Positions 4,897-10,728 are shown, counted from the first letter of the stretch. The stretch is 18,232 bases of DNA from a virus (IMGVR_UViG_2778261667_000006:1-18232), one strand, 5' to 3'. The notes: generated by a model not told the origin, from the sequence alone. Program-made: numbers and translations.

Positions 4897-7800
4897 TTAA
4901 TCCTCAAGTAGAGCATCCAGCGACGGGTCATTAATAGTTGTGCTCGCACGTGGCCGCGGCTGCGGCTGCGATGTTTTGACAACCTTATCTGGATCTCCTT
5001 TTGTATCATTTTTGTTCACATTAAGAAGGTCTTTCAGAATAGAACAGATGTTATCCAGCGCCTTCAACATAGCAGGATCGTTATTTGCGGTGTCAGTAGT
5101 TAATGGTTGTCTTATTCCGCTTCGAGCAAGATCGGTTACTGTGGGAAGCTGTGGCGGCATAGCAAGAAAAGGTTCCTGCACGGCTGACGCAGAGCCAAAT
5201 ATGGTATTATTTGCCTCAGTTGATATTCCCCTGATGCTATCAGCGGTTTGCTGAATACCATTATTTAGCCAACCACCAGCACTTCTTGTAAGTGGGCTAA
5301 TCGCCCTGGCGATTGTTGAATTCTGCCCTGTAGCCTGATAGACAAAATCATTCAATATGCCAGTGCCATCGATGCCACCAACAAGTTGTGAAATGTTGTC
5401 ACCAATTGCAGGTAATACAGCCGAACCAATGCGCTTCATACCTGTTAATGACGAATCAAACAAAGAGCCAAGAAATCCCTTATCTTCGCCGTCTATTATC
5501 TTATTGCCATTGTTATAGACAGGAATTCCTTTTGAGTTTACTGGTGTTTTTTTATTATCTGTTGACTGTGAATCGCCAGAGAGAAGATCGACCGAAGATG
5601 TATCGCGTTCAGGTGCCGATCTTTTTTGTATAGCCTCTCTGATATCAGCCACCTGGGGAGCTTTTTTGAATCCAAAAGATTTACCGGTCAAGTTGGATAT
5701 CTTTTCGGTCAGAGCTTGATCCATTCCCTTCGCCTTTTCAGAGAGCGAAGATATAGAACCAAATGAAGTAGCTGACGCAAAATCCTTAACCAAGTCCAGA
5801 CTTGTACCAGCAAGACTGGTAGCCGCACCACCAAATAAATTACTTACTCCACTGATACCGCTTTCATTTATGGCGATTAACCGCTCAAGCAAACTCGATG
5901 GCGAGGCAGTATTAACATCAGAGTTCTCTGGATTAACCAGTTGTGGTTGGTTACCTGTTTTTTGTGTTTTTTTTGCTGCTTGGGCATGTTGAGCAACCTC
6001 AATTGGCTTAGGTGTTGCTGTTGGAACTGCATTCAATACAGGTTGTGCCGGAGATGTGCCATCAGCATATTTCACCTTGCGACCAACACTATATTGCGAA
6101 TCACGAGCAATTAGCTGACCGCCATTCTCTTTCTGAATTTTATTAAGCCGCGCCAATGTTTCATCGGAGAAACGCCCTTCCCAACGACCAGTATTTGCGT
6201 TGAATACCCCAAGGGCATTCTTTATGAACTCATTGTTAACCGCCGGGTTTCCGCCTTCTTTAGTCGCTATTGCGCGAACTAATTGCGTCATAACCTCTGG
6301 GTTGCCTACGTCTATTTTTTCATTAGGCGAGACACCAAGATATTTGCTGACGTTATCAATATATTGATTAGTATTGTTCTCCTTTGGGGGTGCCCATTTT
6401 GAAATAATACTGGATACCGTTTGTAACTTCTGATATCCGGCAGCGGCACTGGTGCCGTTATAATAGCTGGATACTTGGTTTGCCAGCGCCCTGATTCCTT
6501 CTTCAGGCGTGTTGAATCGGGCAAAACGCTGTTCACCTTTTGCATTTGGCGCTTCCAGCGTCGCCCCTTCCTGATTGGCAAAAACAAGATTGCCGAGATT
6601 ATTATTTCGGTAATTTCGGTTTTTAGCGTTGCTGCCGCCAATATTCAGATCAGCTGCAATGGTGTTGCTGGCAGGGGCATTAAATTCAGCCGGGGAAGTA
6701 TACCCGTGCTCACCAACACCATCTTCACCATCACGCCCGCCTTGTAGCTGCTCACCTAAAGAATGAATCGCATCAACGGTCTTCTTGGTGCCATCCTCAA
6801 CCGCTTTTTTTACTTGCTGCGTGTTTTCATCAGTGGATAAAAATTTATCCTTAAGGCTACCAAAAGCAGATTTAGTGATATCTACTGCGCCATTAACACC
6901 ACGCGCAATATCTCCGGTATCAAAATTCTGAAGTTTTTCACCTGCCCTTTCGAAGCCTAACGCAGAAATTCCTTTGCCTATTAGATTGGTTGCACCAGAA
7001 ACTAAGCCTCCCATATCAAGAACATTAGCGGTTGCGTAAGCGGTTTTTTGCTGTGTGGATACAACATCATCATCACTTAAGCCAAAGGCCGCTTTTTGCG
7101 CATCTGTATCTGTGTAACCATCTATAGCGTCATATCCAGCCATTGCCAACGACCCGATGATGGGGATCGCTCTTGCTGCTGTTGATGCTGCCGATTTCAC
7201 ACCTATTTTGGCAGCACTTTTGAGGGCTACAGATTCAGTTTTTTTCTTTGCAATGGTTTCACCGGTTTTAACTGCGGCATCTTCGGTAACGACACCGGCA
7301 GACTTAACGGCTTTTGCAGTATTTTTTGTTTCTTTAGCAGCCCCCTTAGAAGCGTCACTAGCCGTGCTTATATCTTTGGCTTTGCTAACATTAGTTTTAA
7401 CAGTCTTTGCAGTTCCTGCGCCAACGCCAGCCGCAGCGGTTCCGGCAGCGGCTTTTTCTCCAACGGAAAGGGCTTTTTTCCCCAGATTGCGTCCTTTCCT
7501 TTTCGGTTTGTGTCGTTTATTTCTGCTGGTCTGATCGCCAATATTGATTTTATTTCTTCTACCTGGCCGATTTCTCCAGAGATCACTTAAGCCGAACTTA
7601 TTCCCAGAAGACACCGACTTGCGAAGCTTAGCTACTTCGTCAGAGACATTTTCCAAACCATCAATTATTTTGTTGTCATTGGCCTGAAGAATTTTTGTTT
7701 GCTCTTCTACTGCTTGTGTAGATCTTGTCTCAACTGCATTATTAAATGCAGTTGCAGAGGTTGTTTTTTGTGCATTGGATGCAGCCGGATAAGTGATCGC

Positions 7801-8637
7801 TGGCGATTTCGCTTCGTGATCTGGTGGATTATCTACCCACTCCTTAAGAGATTTTGTTTTCCCTGTAATCTCTTTTGTTATGTCATACATGCCGCGAGCC
7901 GCCATCCATAACGGGCCACCAGCACCGACACCAGCAGCATTTGTTATGGCTTCTTCACCTGCAGACTGATGGCCATCCATCCCCATAATGGAACCTAGTT
8001 TTCGGAGGAAGCCTGCTTGTAATTTTGCGTCGGCTTTACGCGCGTTCTGCAATTCTTTTTTTCTGGCTATATCCTCATTGCTTTTCTGGGATACAAAGCG
8101 TCCATTACTATCCCGAATCGGGCCTTTTGGGCTTTGGGGGGGTTGAAGTTCCAGAGAGGCAGAATTAGCTGCTACCGGTATAGAATCTTTCGACCTTTTG
8201 ATGGACTGGCGTGATCGCACAGAATGAACGCTTTCTGGTGTGTTAGTTGCAACGATAGAGCGATCTATGCCCTGGTCTATTAGTGCCCTCTCCTTTTTCG
8301 CAGGAAGACGTTTTTTATATGGATTAGTTTGGGCATCTCTAACGACATCAGGAGCGTCTTGCTCGTAGTTTTTACGCCTACGGGATAGCCTGTTACTAAC
8401 TTTACCTTGCTGTCCTCCCTGTTGAGTTATAGCGACACCACCAGAAAGAATGGCGTCTTTTATCTCAGCAAGTGCCTTAAGTTCGTTTGCGCTCGCCCCC
8501 TGAATGGCGTCAATTATTGCGATTCGGTCTTTATTTTCTTTCAAAATAACCTCTCTTTTACCAGCGGCGCTCAACGTTTCCCGGCTTGAGCTTTGTATTT
8601 TTCTTCCAGGGCTTTTGACATATGGAGTGCTCGCCAT
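4897..8637 (-). CDS. Large tail protein, 1246 aa; tape-measure-like / P1 Sit-like candidate
   Basis: Single 3.7-kb frame. Basic N-terminus, Ala/Gly-rich hydrophobic glycine-zipper-like segments (AAAGVGAGGPLWMAARG, AAGTAAAGVGAGTAK, IPIIGSLAMAGYDAI), a central globular-looking block (NLGNLVFANQEG...FARFNTPEEGIRALANQVSSYY...ISKWAPP) and a low-complexity C-terminus. Lies directly upstream of the baseplate genes. Weak SD at the ATG. Confidence 0.6.
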   Translation of the reverse strand: MASTPYVKSPGRKIQSSSRETLSAAGKREVILKENKDRIAIIDAIQGASANELKALAEIKDAILSGGVAITQQGGQQGKVSNRLSRRRKNYEQDAPDVVRDAQTNPYKKRLPAKKERALIDQGIDRSIVATNTPESVHSVRSRQSIKRSKDSIPVAANSASLELQPPQSPKGPIRDSNGRFVSQKSNEDIARKKELQNARKADAKLQAGFLRKLGSIMGMDGHQSAGEEAITNAAGVGAGGPLWMAARGMYDITKEITGKTKSLKEWVDNPPDHEAKSPAITYPAASNAQKTTSATAFNNAVETRSTQAVEEQTKILQANDNKIIDGLENVSDEVAKLRKSVSSGNKFGLSDLWRNRPGRRNKINIGDQTSRNKRHKPKRKGRNLGKKALSVGEKAAAGTAAAGVGAGTAKTVKTNVSKAKDISTASDASKGAAKETKNTAKAVKSAGVVTEDAAVKTGETIAKKKTESVALKSAAKIGVKSAASTAARAIPIIGSLAMAGYDAIDGYTDTDAQKAAFGLSDDDVVSTQQKTAYATANVLDMGGLVSGATNLIGKGISALGFERAGEKLQNFDTGDIARGVNGAVDITKSAFGSLKDKFLSTDENTQQVKKAVEDGTKKTVDAIHSLGEQLQGGRDGEDGVGEHGYTSPAEFNAPASNTIAADLNIGGSNAKNRNYRNNNLGNLVFANQEGATLEAPNAKGEQRFARFNTPEEGIRALANQVSSYYNGTSAAAGYQKLQTVSSIISKWAPPKENNTNQYIDNVSKYLGVSPNEKIDVGNPEVMTQLVRAIATKEGGNPAVNNEFIKNALGVFNANTGRWEGRFSDETLARLNKIQKENGGQLIARDSQYSVGRKVKYADGTSPAQPVLNAVPTATPKPIEVAQHAQAAKKTQKTGNQPQLVNPENSDVNTASPSSLLERLIAINESGISGVSNLFGGAATSLAGTSLDLVKDFASATSFGSISSLSEKAKGMDQALTEKISNLTGKSFGFKKAPQVADIREAIQKRSAPERDTSSVDLLSGDSQSTDNKKTPVNSKGIPVYNNGNKIIDGEDKGFLGSLFDSSLTGMKRIGSAVLPAIGDNISQLVGGIDGTGILNDFVYQATGQNSTIARAISPLTRSAGGWLNNGIQQTADSIRGISTEANNTIFGSASAVQEPFLAMPPQLPTVTDLARSGIRQPLTTDTANNDPAMLKALDNICSILKDLLNVNKNDTKGDPDKVVKTSQPQPRPRASTTINDPSLDALLED

Positions 8638-8691: not shown

Positions 8692-9513
8692 TTAATAATG
8701 GTTAGCCATCCATTCAGATCTAATTGATGGGATAAACTCTCTATTGAGAAAGGGGACGTACAGCGTGGTAGTCACGTCTGCACCCTCCTTAACGTTTTTG
8801 CATCGTTGTGGAGGCAGGATCAGGCGGCTTGTGCCTCGTTCAATAGCCATTTTTAAGCCGTGGCGAAGGTCTTTCTGCATGAGCTGAATGCGAGCTACCA
8901 GAGGGGTAAACTCGGTTTCCAGTGCCATGTTTTCAATAATATCGAATCGTCTGTTTGCAGCTTGTGTGAAGTCCTCCGGATCATCTTCAAGCGCCGTGCA
9001 TAAAGCGAGTTCAGCAATCCGCATACGTGCCACGCCAGCACTGTATTCGGGGCTTTTCATATCAGGAAGTGATGCCCGCATACGCTCAAGGAGTTCAGCG
9101 CCTTTCCCGGTTAATGGTTTAAGTATCCAGTCAGTTGGTACACCGTTAACTGGTACGTTGGTTTTTACGTAAGGCGGTACAGTGAGTATCTCTACTGTTT
9201 GAGCCAGATCACTCAGGTTTATATCAGCGTGATGCGTATTACCGCAGTGACCGCACTCATAGGAGTAGGTCATTACTGCATCGGGGCGCGAATTAACAAA
9301 TATCCACCAAAGGGCAGTTCTGCGATCCTGGACTGTCCAGTAAGCACTGTCGTTAATTTCACCATCCTGCATGGAGTTAAGGTACTCTGTAGTAGTTGCC
9401 TCATCTTCTGCCGGGTTCAGGTCAGAATATTTCAGCGCATCCTTCACGGTGGGTGCGTGGAACTGAATTTCTGTCTCAGGACGGGAAGGCAATGGGAATT
9501 TTGGAATGTTCAA
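8692..9513 (-). CDS. Hypothetical 273-aa protein, first gene of the leftward operon diverging from oriR; possible tail assembly protein by position
   Basis: ORF-track frame; ATG with GGAGG 12 nt upstream; contains a CGHCGNTHH cluster. No family recognised. Confidence 0.55.
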   Translation of the reverse strand: MNIPKFPLPSRPETEIQFHAPTVKDALKYSDLNPAEDEATTTEYLNSMQDGEINDSAYWTVQDRRTALWWIFVNSRPDAVMTYSYECGHCGNTHHADINLSDLAQTVEILTVPPYVKTNVPVNGVPTDWILKPLTGKGAELLERMRASLPDMKSPEYSAGVARMRIAELALCTALEDDPEDFTQAANRRFDIIENMALETEFTPLVARIQLMQKDLRHGLKMAIERGTSRLILPPQRCKNVKEGADVTTTLYVPFLNREFIPSIRSEWMANHY

Positions 9514-9599: not shown

Positions 9600-9608
9600 T
9601 TATCCACA
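9600..9608 (+). promoter_or_regulatory. DnaA box, perfect consensus TTATCCACA, at the outer edge of the origin
   Basis: Exact 9-mer read from the sequence; position relative to the GATC cluster and iterons matches P1-type oriR architecture. Confidence 0.6.
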
Positions 9609-9612
9609 GGAT

Positions 9613-9662
9613 AGATCCAATATATAGATCCTGATTAGATCCATATAGTACCAAACAGATCC
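9613..9662. promoter_or_regulatory. Cluster of four GATC (Dam) sites in AGATCC(A) heptamer-like repeats within an AT-rich stretch; origin-opening / methylation-control region
   Basis: GATC at 9614-9617, 9627-9630, 9638-9641 and 9658-9661, each within AGATCC, lying between the DnaA box and the iterons. Confidence 0.6.
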
Positions 9663-9708
9663 CGTAGCTCTTCAGGCCGTGTCACATAAGGCTTTAACCA
9701 CATTTCAG

Positions 9709-9812
9709 ATGTGTGCTGGAGGGAAAACGATGTGTGCTGACGGGAAATATATGTGTGCTGGAGGGTTTTACATGTGTGCTGGCGGGATGTAGGATGTGTG
9801 CTGACGGGAAAA
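9709..9812 (+). repeat. incC-type iteron array: five direct 19-bp RepA-binding repeats (ATGTGTGCTGGAGGGAAAA and variants) at about 21-bp spacing
   Basis: Repeats start at 9709, 9730, 9751, 9772 and 9794. The sequence matches the P1 plasmid iteron consensus as I remember it; five repeats upstream of repA is the P1 incC arrangement. Confidence 0.85.
9766..9794 (+). promoter_or_regulatory. Putative sigma70 promoter of repA embedded in the iterons (-35 TTTACA, 17-bp spacer, -10 TAGGAT); expected to be autorepressed by RepA
   Basis: Hexamers read from the sequence; they overlap iterons 3-5. Autorepression through promoter-iteron overlap is established for P1 repA; its application here is inference. 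Confidence 0.35.
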
Positions 9813-9820
9813 AAAGTCGG

Positions 9821-9829
9821 ATATCCACT
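9821..9829 (+). promoter_or_regulatory. Possible second, imperfect DnaA box (ATATCCACT, 7 of 9) between the last iteron and repA
   Basis: Sequence match only. Confidence 0.25.
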
Positions 9830-9867
9830 GTCGTAAACTTTATTCACAACATGACGGTAACTTATTG

Positions 9868-10728
9868 ATGGATAAGTCATTTATCTCTGATATTCTTTAT
9901 GCTGACATTGAAAGCAAGGCAAAAGAATTAACAGTTAATTCGAACAATACTGTTCAACCTGTCGCGCTTATGCGGCTTGGTGTTTTCGTCCCTAAACCAA
10001 CTAAAAAACAGGGTGAAAACAACGAGATAGATGCATCATCTGTTTTTTCTAAACTGGAAATCGCTCAAGCAGAAGGCTACGACAATATCAAGATTACTGG
10101 TCCTCGTTTGGACATGGATACTGATTTCAAAGTCTGGATTGGGGTAATCTACTCATTTAGCAAATATGGCTTATCATCGAACACTATTCGTCTTTCTTTT
10201 CAAGAGTTTGCAAAGGCGTGCGGATTTCCATCTAAGCGACTTGATGGGAAATTAAGAAACACGATCCACGATTCTTTAGGTCGGTTACGTAACAAAGGCA
10301 TCTCATTCAAAAGAGGTAAAAGTGCTCGTGGAAGCTATAATACTGGCTTGCTTAAAACGGGATATTTTGACTTTGAAACAGATGTCGTTGAACTGGAGGC
10401 TGATTCCAAGTTATGGGAAATCTTCCAGCTAGACTATCGGGTGCTTCTACAGCAACACGCACTTCGTGCTTTACCTAAAAAAGAGGCAGCCCAGGCCATA
10501 TATACCTTTATAGAAAGTCTCCCGGCACGGCCAATACCTATTTCATTTGCCAGAATACGTGAAAGATTAGCCTTGATGTCATCGGTAAGTGAGCAAAACA
10601 GAACGATAAAAAAAGCTATAGACCAGTTAAAAACAATAGGTTATCTCGATTGCACTATTGAAAAGCAAGGACGAGAAAACTTTATTATCGTTCACTCTCG
10701 GAATCCGAAACTTAAACCAACAGATTAA
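9868..10728 (+). CDS. repA: Plasmid replication initiator RepA (P1/IncY iteron-binding type), 286 aa
   Basis: Frame flanked upstream by five and downstream by seven copies of the same 19-bp iteron. The ORF track starts at TTG 9865; I prefer the adjacent ATG at 9868. The only plus-strand gene in the window. Confidence 0.88.
   Translation: MDKSFISDILYADIESKAKELTVNSNNTVQPVALMRLGVFVPKPTKKQGENNEIDASSVFSKLEIAQAEGYDNIKITGPRLDMDTDFKVWIGVIYSFSKYGLSSNTIRLSFQEFAKACGFPSKRLDGKLRNTIHDSLGRLRNKGISFKRGKSARGSYNTGLLKTGYFDFETDVVELEADSKLWEIFQLDYRVLLQQHALRALPKKEAAQAIYTFIESLPARPIPISFARIRERLALMSSVSEQNRTIKKAIDQLKTIGYLDCTIEKQGRENFIIVHSRNPKLKPTD

What the first reader, a model, noticed from the sequence alone, without database searches (positions are those of the whole stretch)
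4897..8637. Composite 1246-aa tail protein: glycine-zipper hydrophobic segments plus an unidentified central globular block
It occupies the position of a tape measure, directly upstream of the baseplate genes, but no hub or spike genes lie between it and the gpW-like gene. It contains Ala/Gly-rich membrane-like segments and a compositionally distinct central region (around NLGNLVFANQEG...EEGIRALANQVSSYY...ISKWAPPKENNTNQYIDNV) that could be an enzymatic or cell-wall-interacting domain. I could not match that region to a lytic transglycosylase signature by eye.
Basis: inference. Interest (0 to 1): 0.45.

Follow-up and report, generated by a model that had tools for sequence, protein, structure and literature searches.

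The report
Tape-measure protein with embedded cell-wall enzyme
This long gene is the tail tape-measure protein of a D6/P1-like phage-plasmid, and its unidentified middle block is a known type of cell-wall-cutting enzyme domain (Enc34 endolysin type) that general domain databases lack, so it is ordinary but mislabelled.

Summary
The ORF at 4897..8637 (-) is real. It is the orthologue (86% nt, about 87% aa) of phage D6 orf40, the counterpart of P1 Sit, the tape-measure protein of P1-group myophages. It sits in the P1-type order pmgB–sit–pmgA–bplA–16–R.

The central block (residues about 671–810, extending to about 850) is a peptidoglycan glycosidase domain of the Enc34 ORF39 / PHA02564 type:
- Sequence match to PDB 7Q47, E 1e-16.
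- The proposed catalytic residues are present (E794, Y759, W748). The first two are invariant and the third always aromatic in 105 homologues.

It is not an SLT domain. P7 Sit scores 6.6e-27 on Pfam SLT; this protein gives no hit. P1-type and D6-type Sit therefore share the N-terminal 600 residues and the extreme C-terminus but carry different lytic modules. The inherited label "transglycosylase" is unproven.

The "glycine-zipper/membrane-like" claim fails: maximum 19-residue hydropathy is 1.19, and small-xxx-small motifs are not enriched. Hub and spike genes lie elsewhere, as in D6. The likely start is TTG 8544 (1215 aa). Known kind, low interest.

The parts
4897..8637 (-). Maximal ORF (1246 codons plus stop) of the Sit-like tape-measure protein
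   Evidence: 86.4% nt identity over its full length to phage D6 orf40 'putative tail injection transglycosylase'; phrog_7182 E=0 over residues 32-1246
4897..8544 (-). Probable true CDS starting at TTG 8544 (residue 32 of the maximal ORF; 1215 aa)
   Evidence: Homologues P0129-P0134 and P0141 and the PHROG profile start here. Residues 1-31 are only 35% identical to D6, against 80-99% downstream
8550..8557 (-). Shine-Dalgarno-like AAGAGAGG, five bases before TTG 8544
   Evidence: Read directly; no comparable motif precedes ATG 8637
6799..8517 (-). N-terminal region (residues 41-613) homologous to P1/P7 Sit residues 11-523
   Evidence: BLASTP 28% identity, E 5e-32
6799..7200 (-). Conserved predicted-helical segment (residues 480-613) holding the two most hydrophobic Ala/Gly-rich stretches (483-501, 544-562)
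   Evidence: 42% identity to P7 Sit by tblastn (H4); 95% identity to D6 against about 80% for flanking regions; 16 invariant columns in 12 diverse family members, including D, Q and K; helices at pLDDT about 60-80 in AF2; phrog_2533/24683/21630 hits
6208..6627 (-). Enc34 ORF39-type (PHA02564) peptidoglycan glycosidase domain core, residues 671-810
6088..6207 (-). C-terminal extension of the lytic domain (residues 811-850: beta-hairpin plus helix), conserved in Sit-like proteins
   Evidence: AF2 pLDDT above 85 with the Sit-family alignment; the top 27 representative hits cover the whole 655-850 query
6256..6258 (-). Codon of E794, equivalent to the proposed catalytic Glu131 of Enc34 ORF39
   Evidence: Alignment; residue roles from PMC8943055; Glu in 105 of 105 homologues
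6361..6363 (-). Codon of Y759, equivalent to Tyr95 of Enc34 ORF39
   Evidence: Tyr in 105 of 105 homologues
6394..6396 (-). Codon of W748, equivalent to Trp79 of Enc34 ORF39
   Evidence: W 89, Y 15, F 1 among 105 homologues
4900..5193 (-). Conserved C-terminal end (residues 1149-1246), the only post-domain stretch with similarity to P7 Sit; inferred hub-proximal end
   Evidence: BLASTP to P7 Sit 1029-1124, E 0.004; 97% identical to D6; matched in most Sit-like representatives. The role is inference
8692..9513 (-). pmgB-like gene immediately upstream (essential tail-morphogenesis gene in P1, not found in virions)
   Evidence: phrog_1854 E 2e-133; P1 data in PMC9024508
4517..4891 (-). pmgA-like gene (T4 gp25-like inner wedge protein in P1) immediately downstream
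   Evidence: D6 annotation; phrog_1896; role from PMC9024508 and PMC12810830
3090..4520 (-). bplA-like baseplate wedge gene
   Evidence: phrog_1369 E 8e-196; D6 annotation

Best explanation
The gene encodes the tail tape-measure protein (Sit orthologue) of a D6-like, P1-group myophage that is maintained as a roughly 90-kb plasmid.

By analogy with P1, the protein fills the tail-tube lumen with its conserved C-terminal end at the hub and sets tail length. After sheath contraction it is expelled into the periplasm.

Residues about 671-850 form a folded glycosidase domain of the Enc34 ORF39 / PHA02564 type. This is a helical, circularly permuted relative of the GH73/GH23 lysozyme-like enzymes. 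E794 would act as the general acid, and Y759 and W748 would position the glycan. Once expelled, the domain would cut the peptidoglycan locally so that the tube and the rest of the protein can reach the inner membrane.

Shown here: orthology, synteny, domain identity, fold, conservation of the proposed catalytic residues, and the absence of an SLT domain.

Inferred from P1, T5 and TM4 precedents: location in the virion, ejection, the timing of the enzymatic step, and any membrane role of the Ala/Gly-rich helices. Which bond is cut (N-acetylglucosaminidase or lytic transglycosylase) is unknown.
For: Orthology and context:
- 86% nt identity over the full length to D6 orf40, with the same gene order.
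- phrog_7182 E=0.
- N-terminal 570 residues homologous to P7 Sit, E 5e-32.
- P1 Sit is detected in virions and assigned as TMP. gp6 is the hub (PMC9024508; PMC12810830).

Domain identity:
- 7Q47 hit at E 1e-16 for the single sequence and 3.8e-22 for the family profile.
- Glu, Tyr and aromatic equivalents present; E794 and Y759 invariant in 105 homologues.
- Enc34 ORF39deltaC is muralytic on E. coli, P. aeruginosa and H. alvei (PMC8943055).

Selection and distribution:
- The domain is 99% identical to D6 while flanking regions are about 80%.
- The same domain sits in many long virion proteins: 127 of the 150 best representative clusters are longer than 300 aa, and about 27 are Sit-like proteins of 1100-1455 aa with the domain at a relative position of 0.55-0.7.
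- phrog_2276 'tail length tape measure protein' E 4.5e-27.
Against: - No experiment has been done on this protein or on D6 Sit.
- The TMP role is transferred from P1, where Sit itself was not resolved by cryo-EM.
- Only about 28% identity to P1/P7 Sit, and the region after residue 613 is mostly unrelated.
- No catalytic mutant is cited for Enc34 in the passages read; residue roles come from structural superposition.
- It is unexplained how three copies of a folded domain of about 20 kDa fit in a tube lumen.
- AF2 confidence for the non-enzymatic parts is low.
Confidence: 0.85

Rival explanations
1. The protein is, as annotated in D6 and about 100 plasmids, a lytic transglycosylase like P1 Sit. 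In this reading the central domain makes 1,6-anhydro-MurNAc products by the GH23 mechanism.
For: - The name 'transglycosylase' appears on D6, plasmid and RefSeq records.
- The Enc34 fold superposes distantly on GH23 enzymes gp144 and MltC, with a shared Glu (PMC8943055).
- The single-Glu active site is compatible with lytic transglycosylase chemistry (inference).
Against: - No Pfam SLT hit even at E<=10 on the isolated domain, while P7 Sit scores 6.6e-27.
- The catalytic helix is at the C-terminal end of the core, a permuted order.
- The closest structural relative named by the Enc34 authors is a GH73 N-acetylglucosaminidase. HPLC on the homologue M4Lys indicated glucosaminidase activity.
- The label is best explained as a name transferred from P1.
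Confidence: 0.3
2. The central domain is a catalytically dead peptidoglycan-binding or purely structural plug, kept only for tail assembly.
For: No activity data exist for any TMP-embedded copy. The domain has to travel through or sit in a narrow tube, which might favour a non-enzymatic role (inference).
Against: All residues proposed to be catalytic or substrate-positioning are retained, and E794, Y759, E753, N754 and T756 are invariant in 105 homologues that include active endolysins. The domain is 99% identical to D6 against about 80% for the flanks.
Confidence: 0.07
3. The Ala/Gly-rich segments are glycine-zipper transmembrane helices that form the inner-membrane DNA channel.
For: - Ala+Gly reaches 34% in residues 401-500, and the mildly hydrophobic stretches 483-501 and 544-562 are conserved.
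- T5 Pb2 is cited in PMC9024508 (ref 55) as a tape measure with fusogenic and muralytic activities.
Against: - Maximum hydropathy is 1.19 over 19 residues, against 1.57 for the real transmembrane helix of Enc34 ORF39.
- Small-xxx-small motifs number 12, against 11.5 +/- 3.5 expected; GxxxG 3 against 2.9.
- The segment carries invariant D, Q and K residues.
Confidence: 0.15
4. The protein is not the tape measure but only an ejected 'injection' enzyme, and the gene-6 homologue measures the tail (the older P1 view, still written in the D6 record).
For: The D6 orf67 annotation reads 'putative tail tape measure protein, similar to P1 gene 6'. P1 gene 6 mutants give variable tail length (cited in PMC9024508).
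Against: P1 gp6 is the trimeric hub in the cryo-EM structure, and at 338 aa it is too short. Sit-like length (1100-1455 aa) and architecture are conserved across the family.
Confidence: 0.03

Closest known systems
Escherichia phage D6 orf40 ('putative tail injection transglycosylase', ASR76343.1) and its copies on about 100 E. coli/Salmonella phage-plasmids
   Same: Orthologue: 86% nt and about 87% aa identity over the full length, with the same neighbours. Same central domain (99% identical).
   Different: The flanking helical and low-complexity regions are only about 80% identical. The best database match is 90.7% nt (NZ_AP027688.1). The D6 annotated start extends upstream in a stretch that is not conserved as protein.
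P1 / P7 Sit (structural injection transglycosylase; tape-measure protein of P1)
   Same: Same position in the operon, similar length (1130-1140 aa), homologous N-terminal ~570 residues (28% identity; 42% in the conserved segment 470-613), weakly similar C-terminal end, and a muralytic domain embedded after the helical part (PMC9024508).
   Different: P7 Sit carries a Pfam SLT (GH23) domain at 748-857 (E 6.6e-27). This protein carries an Enc34-type domain at 671-850 and has no SLT hit. The spacing between the conserved segment and the lytic domain is about 225 aa in P7 and about 58 aa here.
Hafnia phage Enc34 ORF39 endolysin catalytic domain (PDB 7Q47; PHA02564) and Salmonella phage BSPM4 M4Lys
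   Different: Those are lysis-cassette proteins of about 240 aa with a C-terminal two-helix membrane domain that act from within. Here the domain is internal to a ~1200-aa virion protein and would act from without. It has an extra beta-hairpin/helix extension (811-850) and no transmembrane helices.
N-terminal domain of gp16-type internal virion proteins of some T7-like phages (e.g. Kayfunavirus Dev2 gp16; PDB 9VVP chain L 'Gp29', 1295 aa)
   Same: Same Enc34-type domain (E 6.4e-13 to 9VVP_L; tblastn hits to many 'internal virion protein D' genes) in a protein ejected into the cell envelope at infection.
   Different: The domain is at the extreme N-terminus of a capsid-core ejection protein of a podophage, not in the middle of a myophage tape measure. 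There is no other similarity.
Tape-measure proteins with other muralytic modules (T5 Pb2, mycobacteriophage TM4 Tmp)
   Same: The general principle is the same: a cell-wall-degrading module carried inside the tape measure and delivered on ejection (cited in PMC9024508 as refs 55 and 56).
   Different: The enzyme families differ (own knowledge: metallopeptidase motif in Pb2, Rpf-like motif in TM4). Those are siphophages. No sequence relationship was tested here.
Corticovirus PM2 protein P5 and the small 'structural protein P5' family
   Same: Stand-alone proteins of 135-150 aa from the same domain family, with the W/Y/E signature. They were annotated as Enc34-like lysins by Yutin et al. (bioRxiv 10.1101/2022.07.18.500477).
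   Different: Single-domain proteins of tailless or Mu-like phages, not part of a tape measure.

Membership tests
P1-group Sit-type tape-measure protein (phrog_7182) | Full-length profile match | tested here: met
   phrog_7182 E=0, 2264 bits, residues 32-1246 against profile 1-1228 of 1228
P1-group Sit-type tape-measure protein (phrog_7182) | Synteny pmgB - sit - pmgA - bplA - 16 - R | tested here: met
   ORF map and PHROG hits of neighbours. Same order in D6; in P7 the order from sit downstream matches under other gene names
P1-group Sit-type tape-measure protein (phrog_7182) | Sequence homology to P1/P7 Sit | tested here: met
   BLASTP E 5e-32 over residues 41-613; weak (E 0.004) at the C-terminal end; none in between
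P1-group Sit-type tape-measure protein (phrog_7182) | SLT (PF01464) lytic transglycosylase domain, which gave Sit its name | tested here: not met
   No Pfam family at E<=1 on the whole protein, and no SLT hit at E<=10 on residues 620-860. P7 Sit as positive control scores SLT 6.6e-27
P1-group Sit-type tape-measure protein (phrog_7182) | Virion component that sets tail length | not testable with these tools
   Known only for P1: LC-MS/MS detection and TMP assignment (PMC9024508, PMC12810830)
Enc34 ORF39-type peptidoglycan hydrolase domain (PHA02564) | Significant sequence similarity to the solved catalytic domain | tested here: met
   7Q47_A E 1.1e-16 over residues 671-800; family profile E 3.8e-22; phrog_873 'endolysin' E 4e-38
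Enc34 ORF39-type peptidoglycan hydrolase domain (PHA02564) | All-helical permuted lysozyme-like fold | tested here: met
Enc34 ORF39-type peptidoglycan hydrolase domain (PHA02564) | Glu131 / Tyr95 / Trp79 signature | tested here: met
   E794, Y759 and W748 align to them. E and Y are present in 105 of 105 homologues, and the third position is always aromatic
Enc34 ORF39-type peptidoglycan hydrolase domain (PHA02564) | Muralytic activity | not testable with these tools
   Shown for Enc34 ORF39deltaC only (PMC8943055)
Enc34-type endolysin (whole-protein architecture) | [quoted passage not shown] | tested here: not met
   No segment with hydropathy >=1.6. The gene lies in the tail operon. It shares the domain but is not an endolysin
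GH73 N-acetylglucosaminidase (PF01832) | Profile match | tested here: inconclusive
Glycine-zipper / transmembrane segments | Hydrophobic stretch of transmembrane strength and enrichment of small-xxx-small motifs | tested here: not met
   Maximum 19-residue KD is 1.19. Triple motifs number 12 against 11.5 +/- 3.5 in shuffles; GxxxG 3 against 2.9

The most novel reading that the evidence does not exclude
D6-type and P1-type Sit proteins may be a case of lytic-module replacement inside an otherwise homologous myophage tape measure. One carries a GH23 lytic transglycosylase. The other carries an Enc34-type, probably GH73-like N-acetylglucosaminidase that cuts the other glycosidic bond.

The Enc34-type domain, known in the searched literature as an endolysin or small stand-alone lysin, would then be predominantly a virion-delivered 'from-without' enzyme. 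127 of the 150 closest representative clusters are long virion-type proteins. The family has about 6,600 clusters at 50% identity and no Pfam or NCBIfam model.
Probability: 0.45. Interest if true: 0.3.

Novelty: new member of a known kind. Interest (0 to 1): 0.2.

Why it matters
The practical value is in annotation.

- About 100 sequenced E. coli/Salmonella phage-plasmids carry this gene labelled 'transglycosylase' or 'hypothetical protein'. The label comes from P1 Sit by name transfer, yet the enzymatic module belongs to a different family whose bond specificity is unresolved.
- Pfam and NCBIfam have no model for a domain family with thousands of members. Tape-measure and ejection proteins that carry it therefore look domain-less.
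- Biologically, it adds an example of modular exchange of cell-wall-degrading domains within tape-measure proteins. It also offers a well-conserved, probably soluble ~180-residue fragment to test as a Gram-negative-active muralytic enzyme.

It does not open a new question.

Tried and rejected
- **Pfam and NCBIfam on the whole protein:** no hits. Pfam on residues 620-860 at E<=10 gave only a chance DHQ_synthase hit.
- **First homologue search, single domain sequence:** only 12 hits, mostly fragments. It had to be repeated with a mixed alignment.
- **Third homologue search, conserved helical segment (A4):** only 14 fragments. The AF2 run for 440-860 therefore used 25 representative full-length proteins. 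The enzyme domain improved, but residues 440-500 and the linkers stayed below pLDDT 50. No fold could be assigned to the Ala/Gly-rich region.
- **Family-profile search of PDB sequences:** nothing for the N- or C-terminal parts.
- **Glycine-zipper and transmembrane tests:** negative.
- **Literature:** the D6 genome paper (Gilcrease & Casjens 2018) is not held in the library. No paper was found for PDB 9VVP. Searches for PHA02564 or Enc34 together with 'tape measure' found no paper whose title or abstract links the domain to tape measures; their full texts were not read.
- **Rejected readings:** an SLT domain diverged beyond Pfam's reach was rejected because of the strong specific match to 7Q47 and the permuted position of the catalytic Glu. 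The gene-6 homologue as tape measure was rejected on the P1 cryo-EM evidence.
Full report
**The ORF and its start**

The window has one long ORF at 4897..8637 on the minus strand, 1246 codons. The start is probably not ATG 8637:
- That ATG lacks a ribosome-binding site.
- Residues 1-31 are only 35% identical to the D6 protein, against 80-99% for the rest. The D6 upstream extension differs in sequence.
- Every full-length homologue, and the PHROG profile, begins at residue 32.
- Residue 32 is TTG 8544, preceded by AAGAGAGG five bases upstream.

The likely product is therefore 1215 aa.

**Genomic identity and context**

- The gene is 86.4% identical in DNA over its whole length to orf40 of Escherichia phage D6, annotated 'putative tail injection transglycosylase, similar to P1 gene sit'.
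- Related copies lie on 103 plasmid records of about 90 kb from E. coli, Salmonella and Shigella, and in 80 of 5426 complete E. coli genomes, always on plasmids. The best match is 90.7%.
- The neighbours are the P1-type tail module. Upstream are the major capsid, sheath, gp21, pmgG, bplB, pmgC and tub genes, then a Rep gene on the other strand, then pmgB. Downstream of sit are pmgA, bplA, gp16 and R.
- In P1, Sit is a virion protein now assigned as the tape measure, and gp6 is the hub (PMC9024508; PMC12810830).
- The missing hub and spike genes are explained by the P1-group layout. In D6 the homologues of genes 5, 6, 26, upfB and upfC lie in other operons.

**The central block**

Pfam and NCBIfam report nothing for this protein. 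A sequence search of the PDB does find matches:
- Residues 671-800 match 7Q47 at E 1.1e-16. This is the catalytic domain of the Hafnia phage Enc34 ORF39 endolysin.
- The same residues match the N-terminus of 9VVP chain L 'Gp29' (1295 aa) at E 6.4e-13.

PMC8943055 describes the Enc34 domain as follows:
- It belongs to family PHA02564 and is muralytic on Gram-negative cells.
- It is all-helical and a circularly permuted distant relative of GH73 and GH23 enzymes.
- Its proposed catalytic and substrate-positioning residues are Glu131, Tyr95 and Trp79.
- Its authors infer that it is an N-acetylglucosaminidase.

In the alignment those residues correspond to E794, Y759 and W748. In an alignment of 105 homologues, E794 and Y759 are invariant and position 748 is always aromatic.

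Structure prediction agrees:
- An AlphaFold2 model of residues 655-850 had mean pLDDT 74, rising to 85-95 across the domain when the Sit-family alignment was used.
- Foldseek gives E 4.9e-9.
- The domain continues to about residue 850 with a β-hairpin and a helix that are conserved in Sit-like proteins.

**Relationship to P1 Sit**

- P7 Sit (1130 aa) has a Pfam SLT domain at 748-857, E 6.6e-27. This protein has none.
- The two proteins align over residues 41-613 at 28% identity (E 5e-32). The best-conserved part is 470-613, at 42% by tblastn.
- They also align weakly at the extreme C-terminus.

D6-type and P1-type Sit therefore share a scaffold but carry different lytic modules. The label 'transglycosylase' on D6-type proteins is a name transfer. 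Bond specificity is open:
- Five of 26 family members give weak PF01832 Glucosaminidase hits.

Both point the same way as the Enc34 authors' inference.

**Conservation pattern**

| Region (residues) | Identity to D6 |
|---|---|
| Helical segment 480-613 | 95% |
| Linker 614-670 | 98% |
| Enzyme core 671-810 | 99% |
| Domain extension 811-850 | 90% |
| C-terminal end 1149-1246 | 97% |
| All other regions from residue 32 | 79-85% |

The pattern fits three constrained modules joined by freer spacer sequence.

**Distribution of the domain**

- A full HMMER scan of 1.84 billion representative proteins found 6643 clusters at E<=1e-3 and 1134 at E<=1e-10.
- Of the best 150, 127 are longer than 300 aa. 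About 27 are Sit-like proteins of 1100-1455 aa with the domain at a relative position of 0.55-0.7.
- Others are proteins of 500-900 aa with the domain in the central or C-terminal part. Examples are Pantoea phage PdC23 'tail length tape measure protein' and phrog_2276.
- Others are small stand-alone 'structural protein P5' proteins (PM2 P5).
- The domain also forms the N-terminus of gp16-like internal virion proteins.
- A T6SS effector domain has also been compared with Enc34.

**The 'glycine-zipper, membrane-like' segments**

- Ala+Gly is high, at 34% in residues 401-500.
- The highest 19-residue hydropathy is 1.19, below transmembrane strength. The genuine transmembrane helix of Enc34 ORF39 scores 1.57 by the same measure.
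- Small-xxx-small and GxxxG motifs occur at the frequency expected from composition.
- The mildly hydrophobic stretches 483-501 and 544-562 lie in a conserved segment with invariant Pro, Gly, Asp, Gln and Lys. It is predicted helical at moderate confidence.
- No solved structure or Pfam family matches this segment. Its role is unknown: it could pack in the tube, bind the hub or tube, or associate with membrane after ejection.

**Mechanism**

The part shown here is that this is a Sit-type tape measure with a conserved, apparently catalytically competent Enc34-type glycosidase domain.

The rest is inferred from P1 and from the T5 and TM4 precedents cited there:
1. The protein fills the tube and is anchored at the hub by its conserved C-terminal end.
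2. It is expelled after contraction.
3. The domain opens the peptidoglycan locally.

**Verdict**

This is a known kind of protein and a close relative of annotated database entries. The useful results are the correct identification of the domain, the P1/D6 module difference, the corrected start codon, and the rejection of the glycine-zipper reading.

Noticed in passing
window 9600-10728: A plasmid replication module sits inside the tail gene cluster, between tub and pmgB. Five iterons (GATGTGTGCTGRNGGGA-like, 21-22 bp spacing) start at about 9708, 9729, 9751, 9771 and 9793. Next to them is a GATC-rich, AT-rich stretch at about 9600-9665 with a DnaA-box-like TTATCCACA at 9600-9608. The + strand ORF 9865..10728 has a Pfam Rep3_N hit (E 2e-6) and matches phrog_775. 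D6 has the same arrangement (orf42, 'repA?').
   Followed up: partly
window 8692-9513 (-): The PmgB-like protein gives a sub-threshold Pfam hit to PF12322 'T4 bacteriophage base plate protein' (E 1.3e-4; 22.2 bits against a cut-off of 24.5; residues 12-104). The P1 proteome paper found no relatives for PmgB and guessed a tape-measure chaperone role. A link to a T4 baseplate-assembly protein would be an alternative lead.
   Followed up: no
window 8544-8637 (-): The first 31 codons of the maximal sit ORF are probably not translated. There is no RBS at ATG 8637. TTG 8544 has a strong AAGAGAGG five bases upstream, and homologues start there. The D6 record annotates an even longer N-terminal extension whose sequence is not conserved, so it is probably mis-started too.
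   Followed up: yes
L007 (D6 record 64812-65792, orf67): The D6 homologue of P1 gene 6 is annotated 'putative tail tape measure protein'. P1 work (HHpred and cryo-EM) shows gp6 is the baseplate hub, so this annotation is outdated.
   Followed up: partly
window 4897-8544 (-) against L001 8961-12743: Divergence from D6 within sit is mosaic: about 80% aa identity in residues 32-479 and 851-1148, but 95-99% in 480-810 and 97% in 1149-1246. A population study of D6-like prophages also lists sit as a divergent region (PMC6799933). Recombination or relaxed constraint in the spacer regions was not tested.
   Followed up: partly
window 7480-7630 (-), residues about 340-395: A very basic low-complexity stretch, RNRPGRRNKINIGDQTSRNKRHKPKRKGRNLGKK. 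Lys+Arg is 23% in residues 301-400. It precedes the Ala/Gly-rich region. In the BLASTP alignment this part of P7 Sit is largely gapped or unmatched. Function unknown.
   Followed up: no
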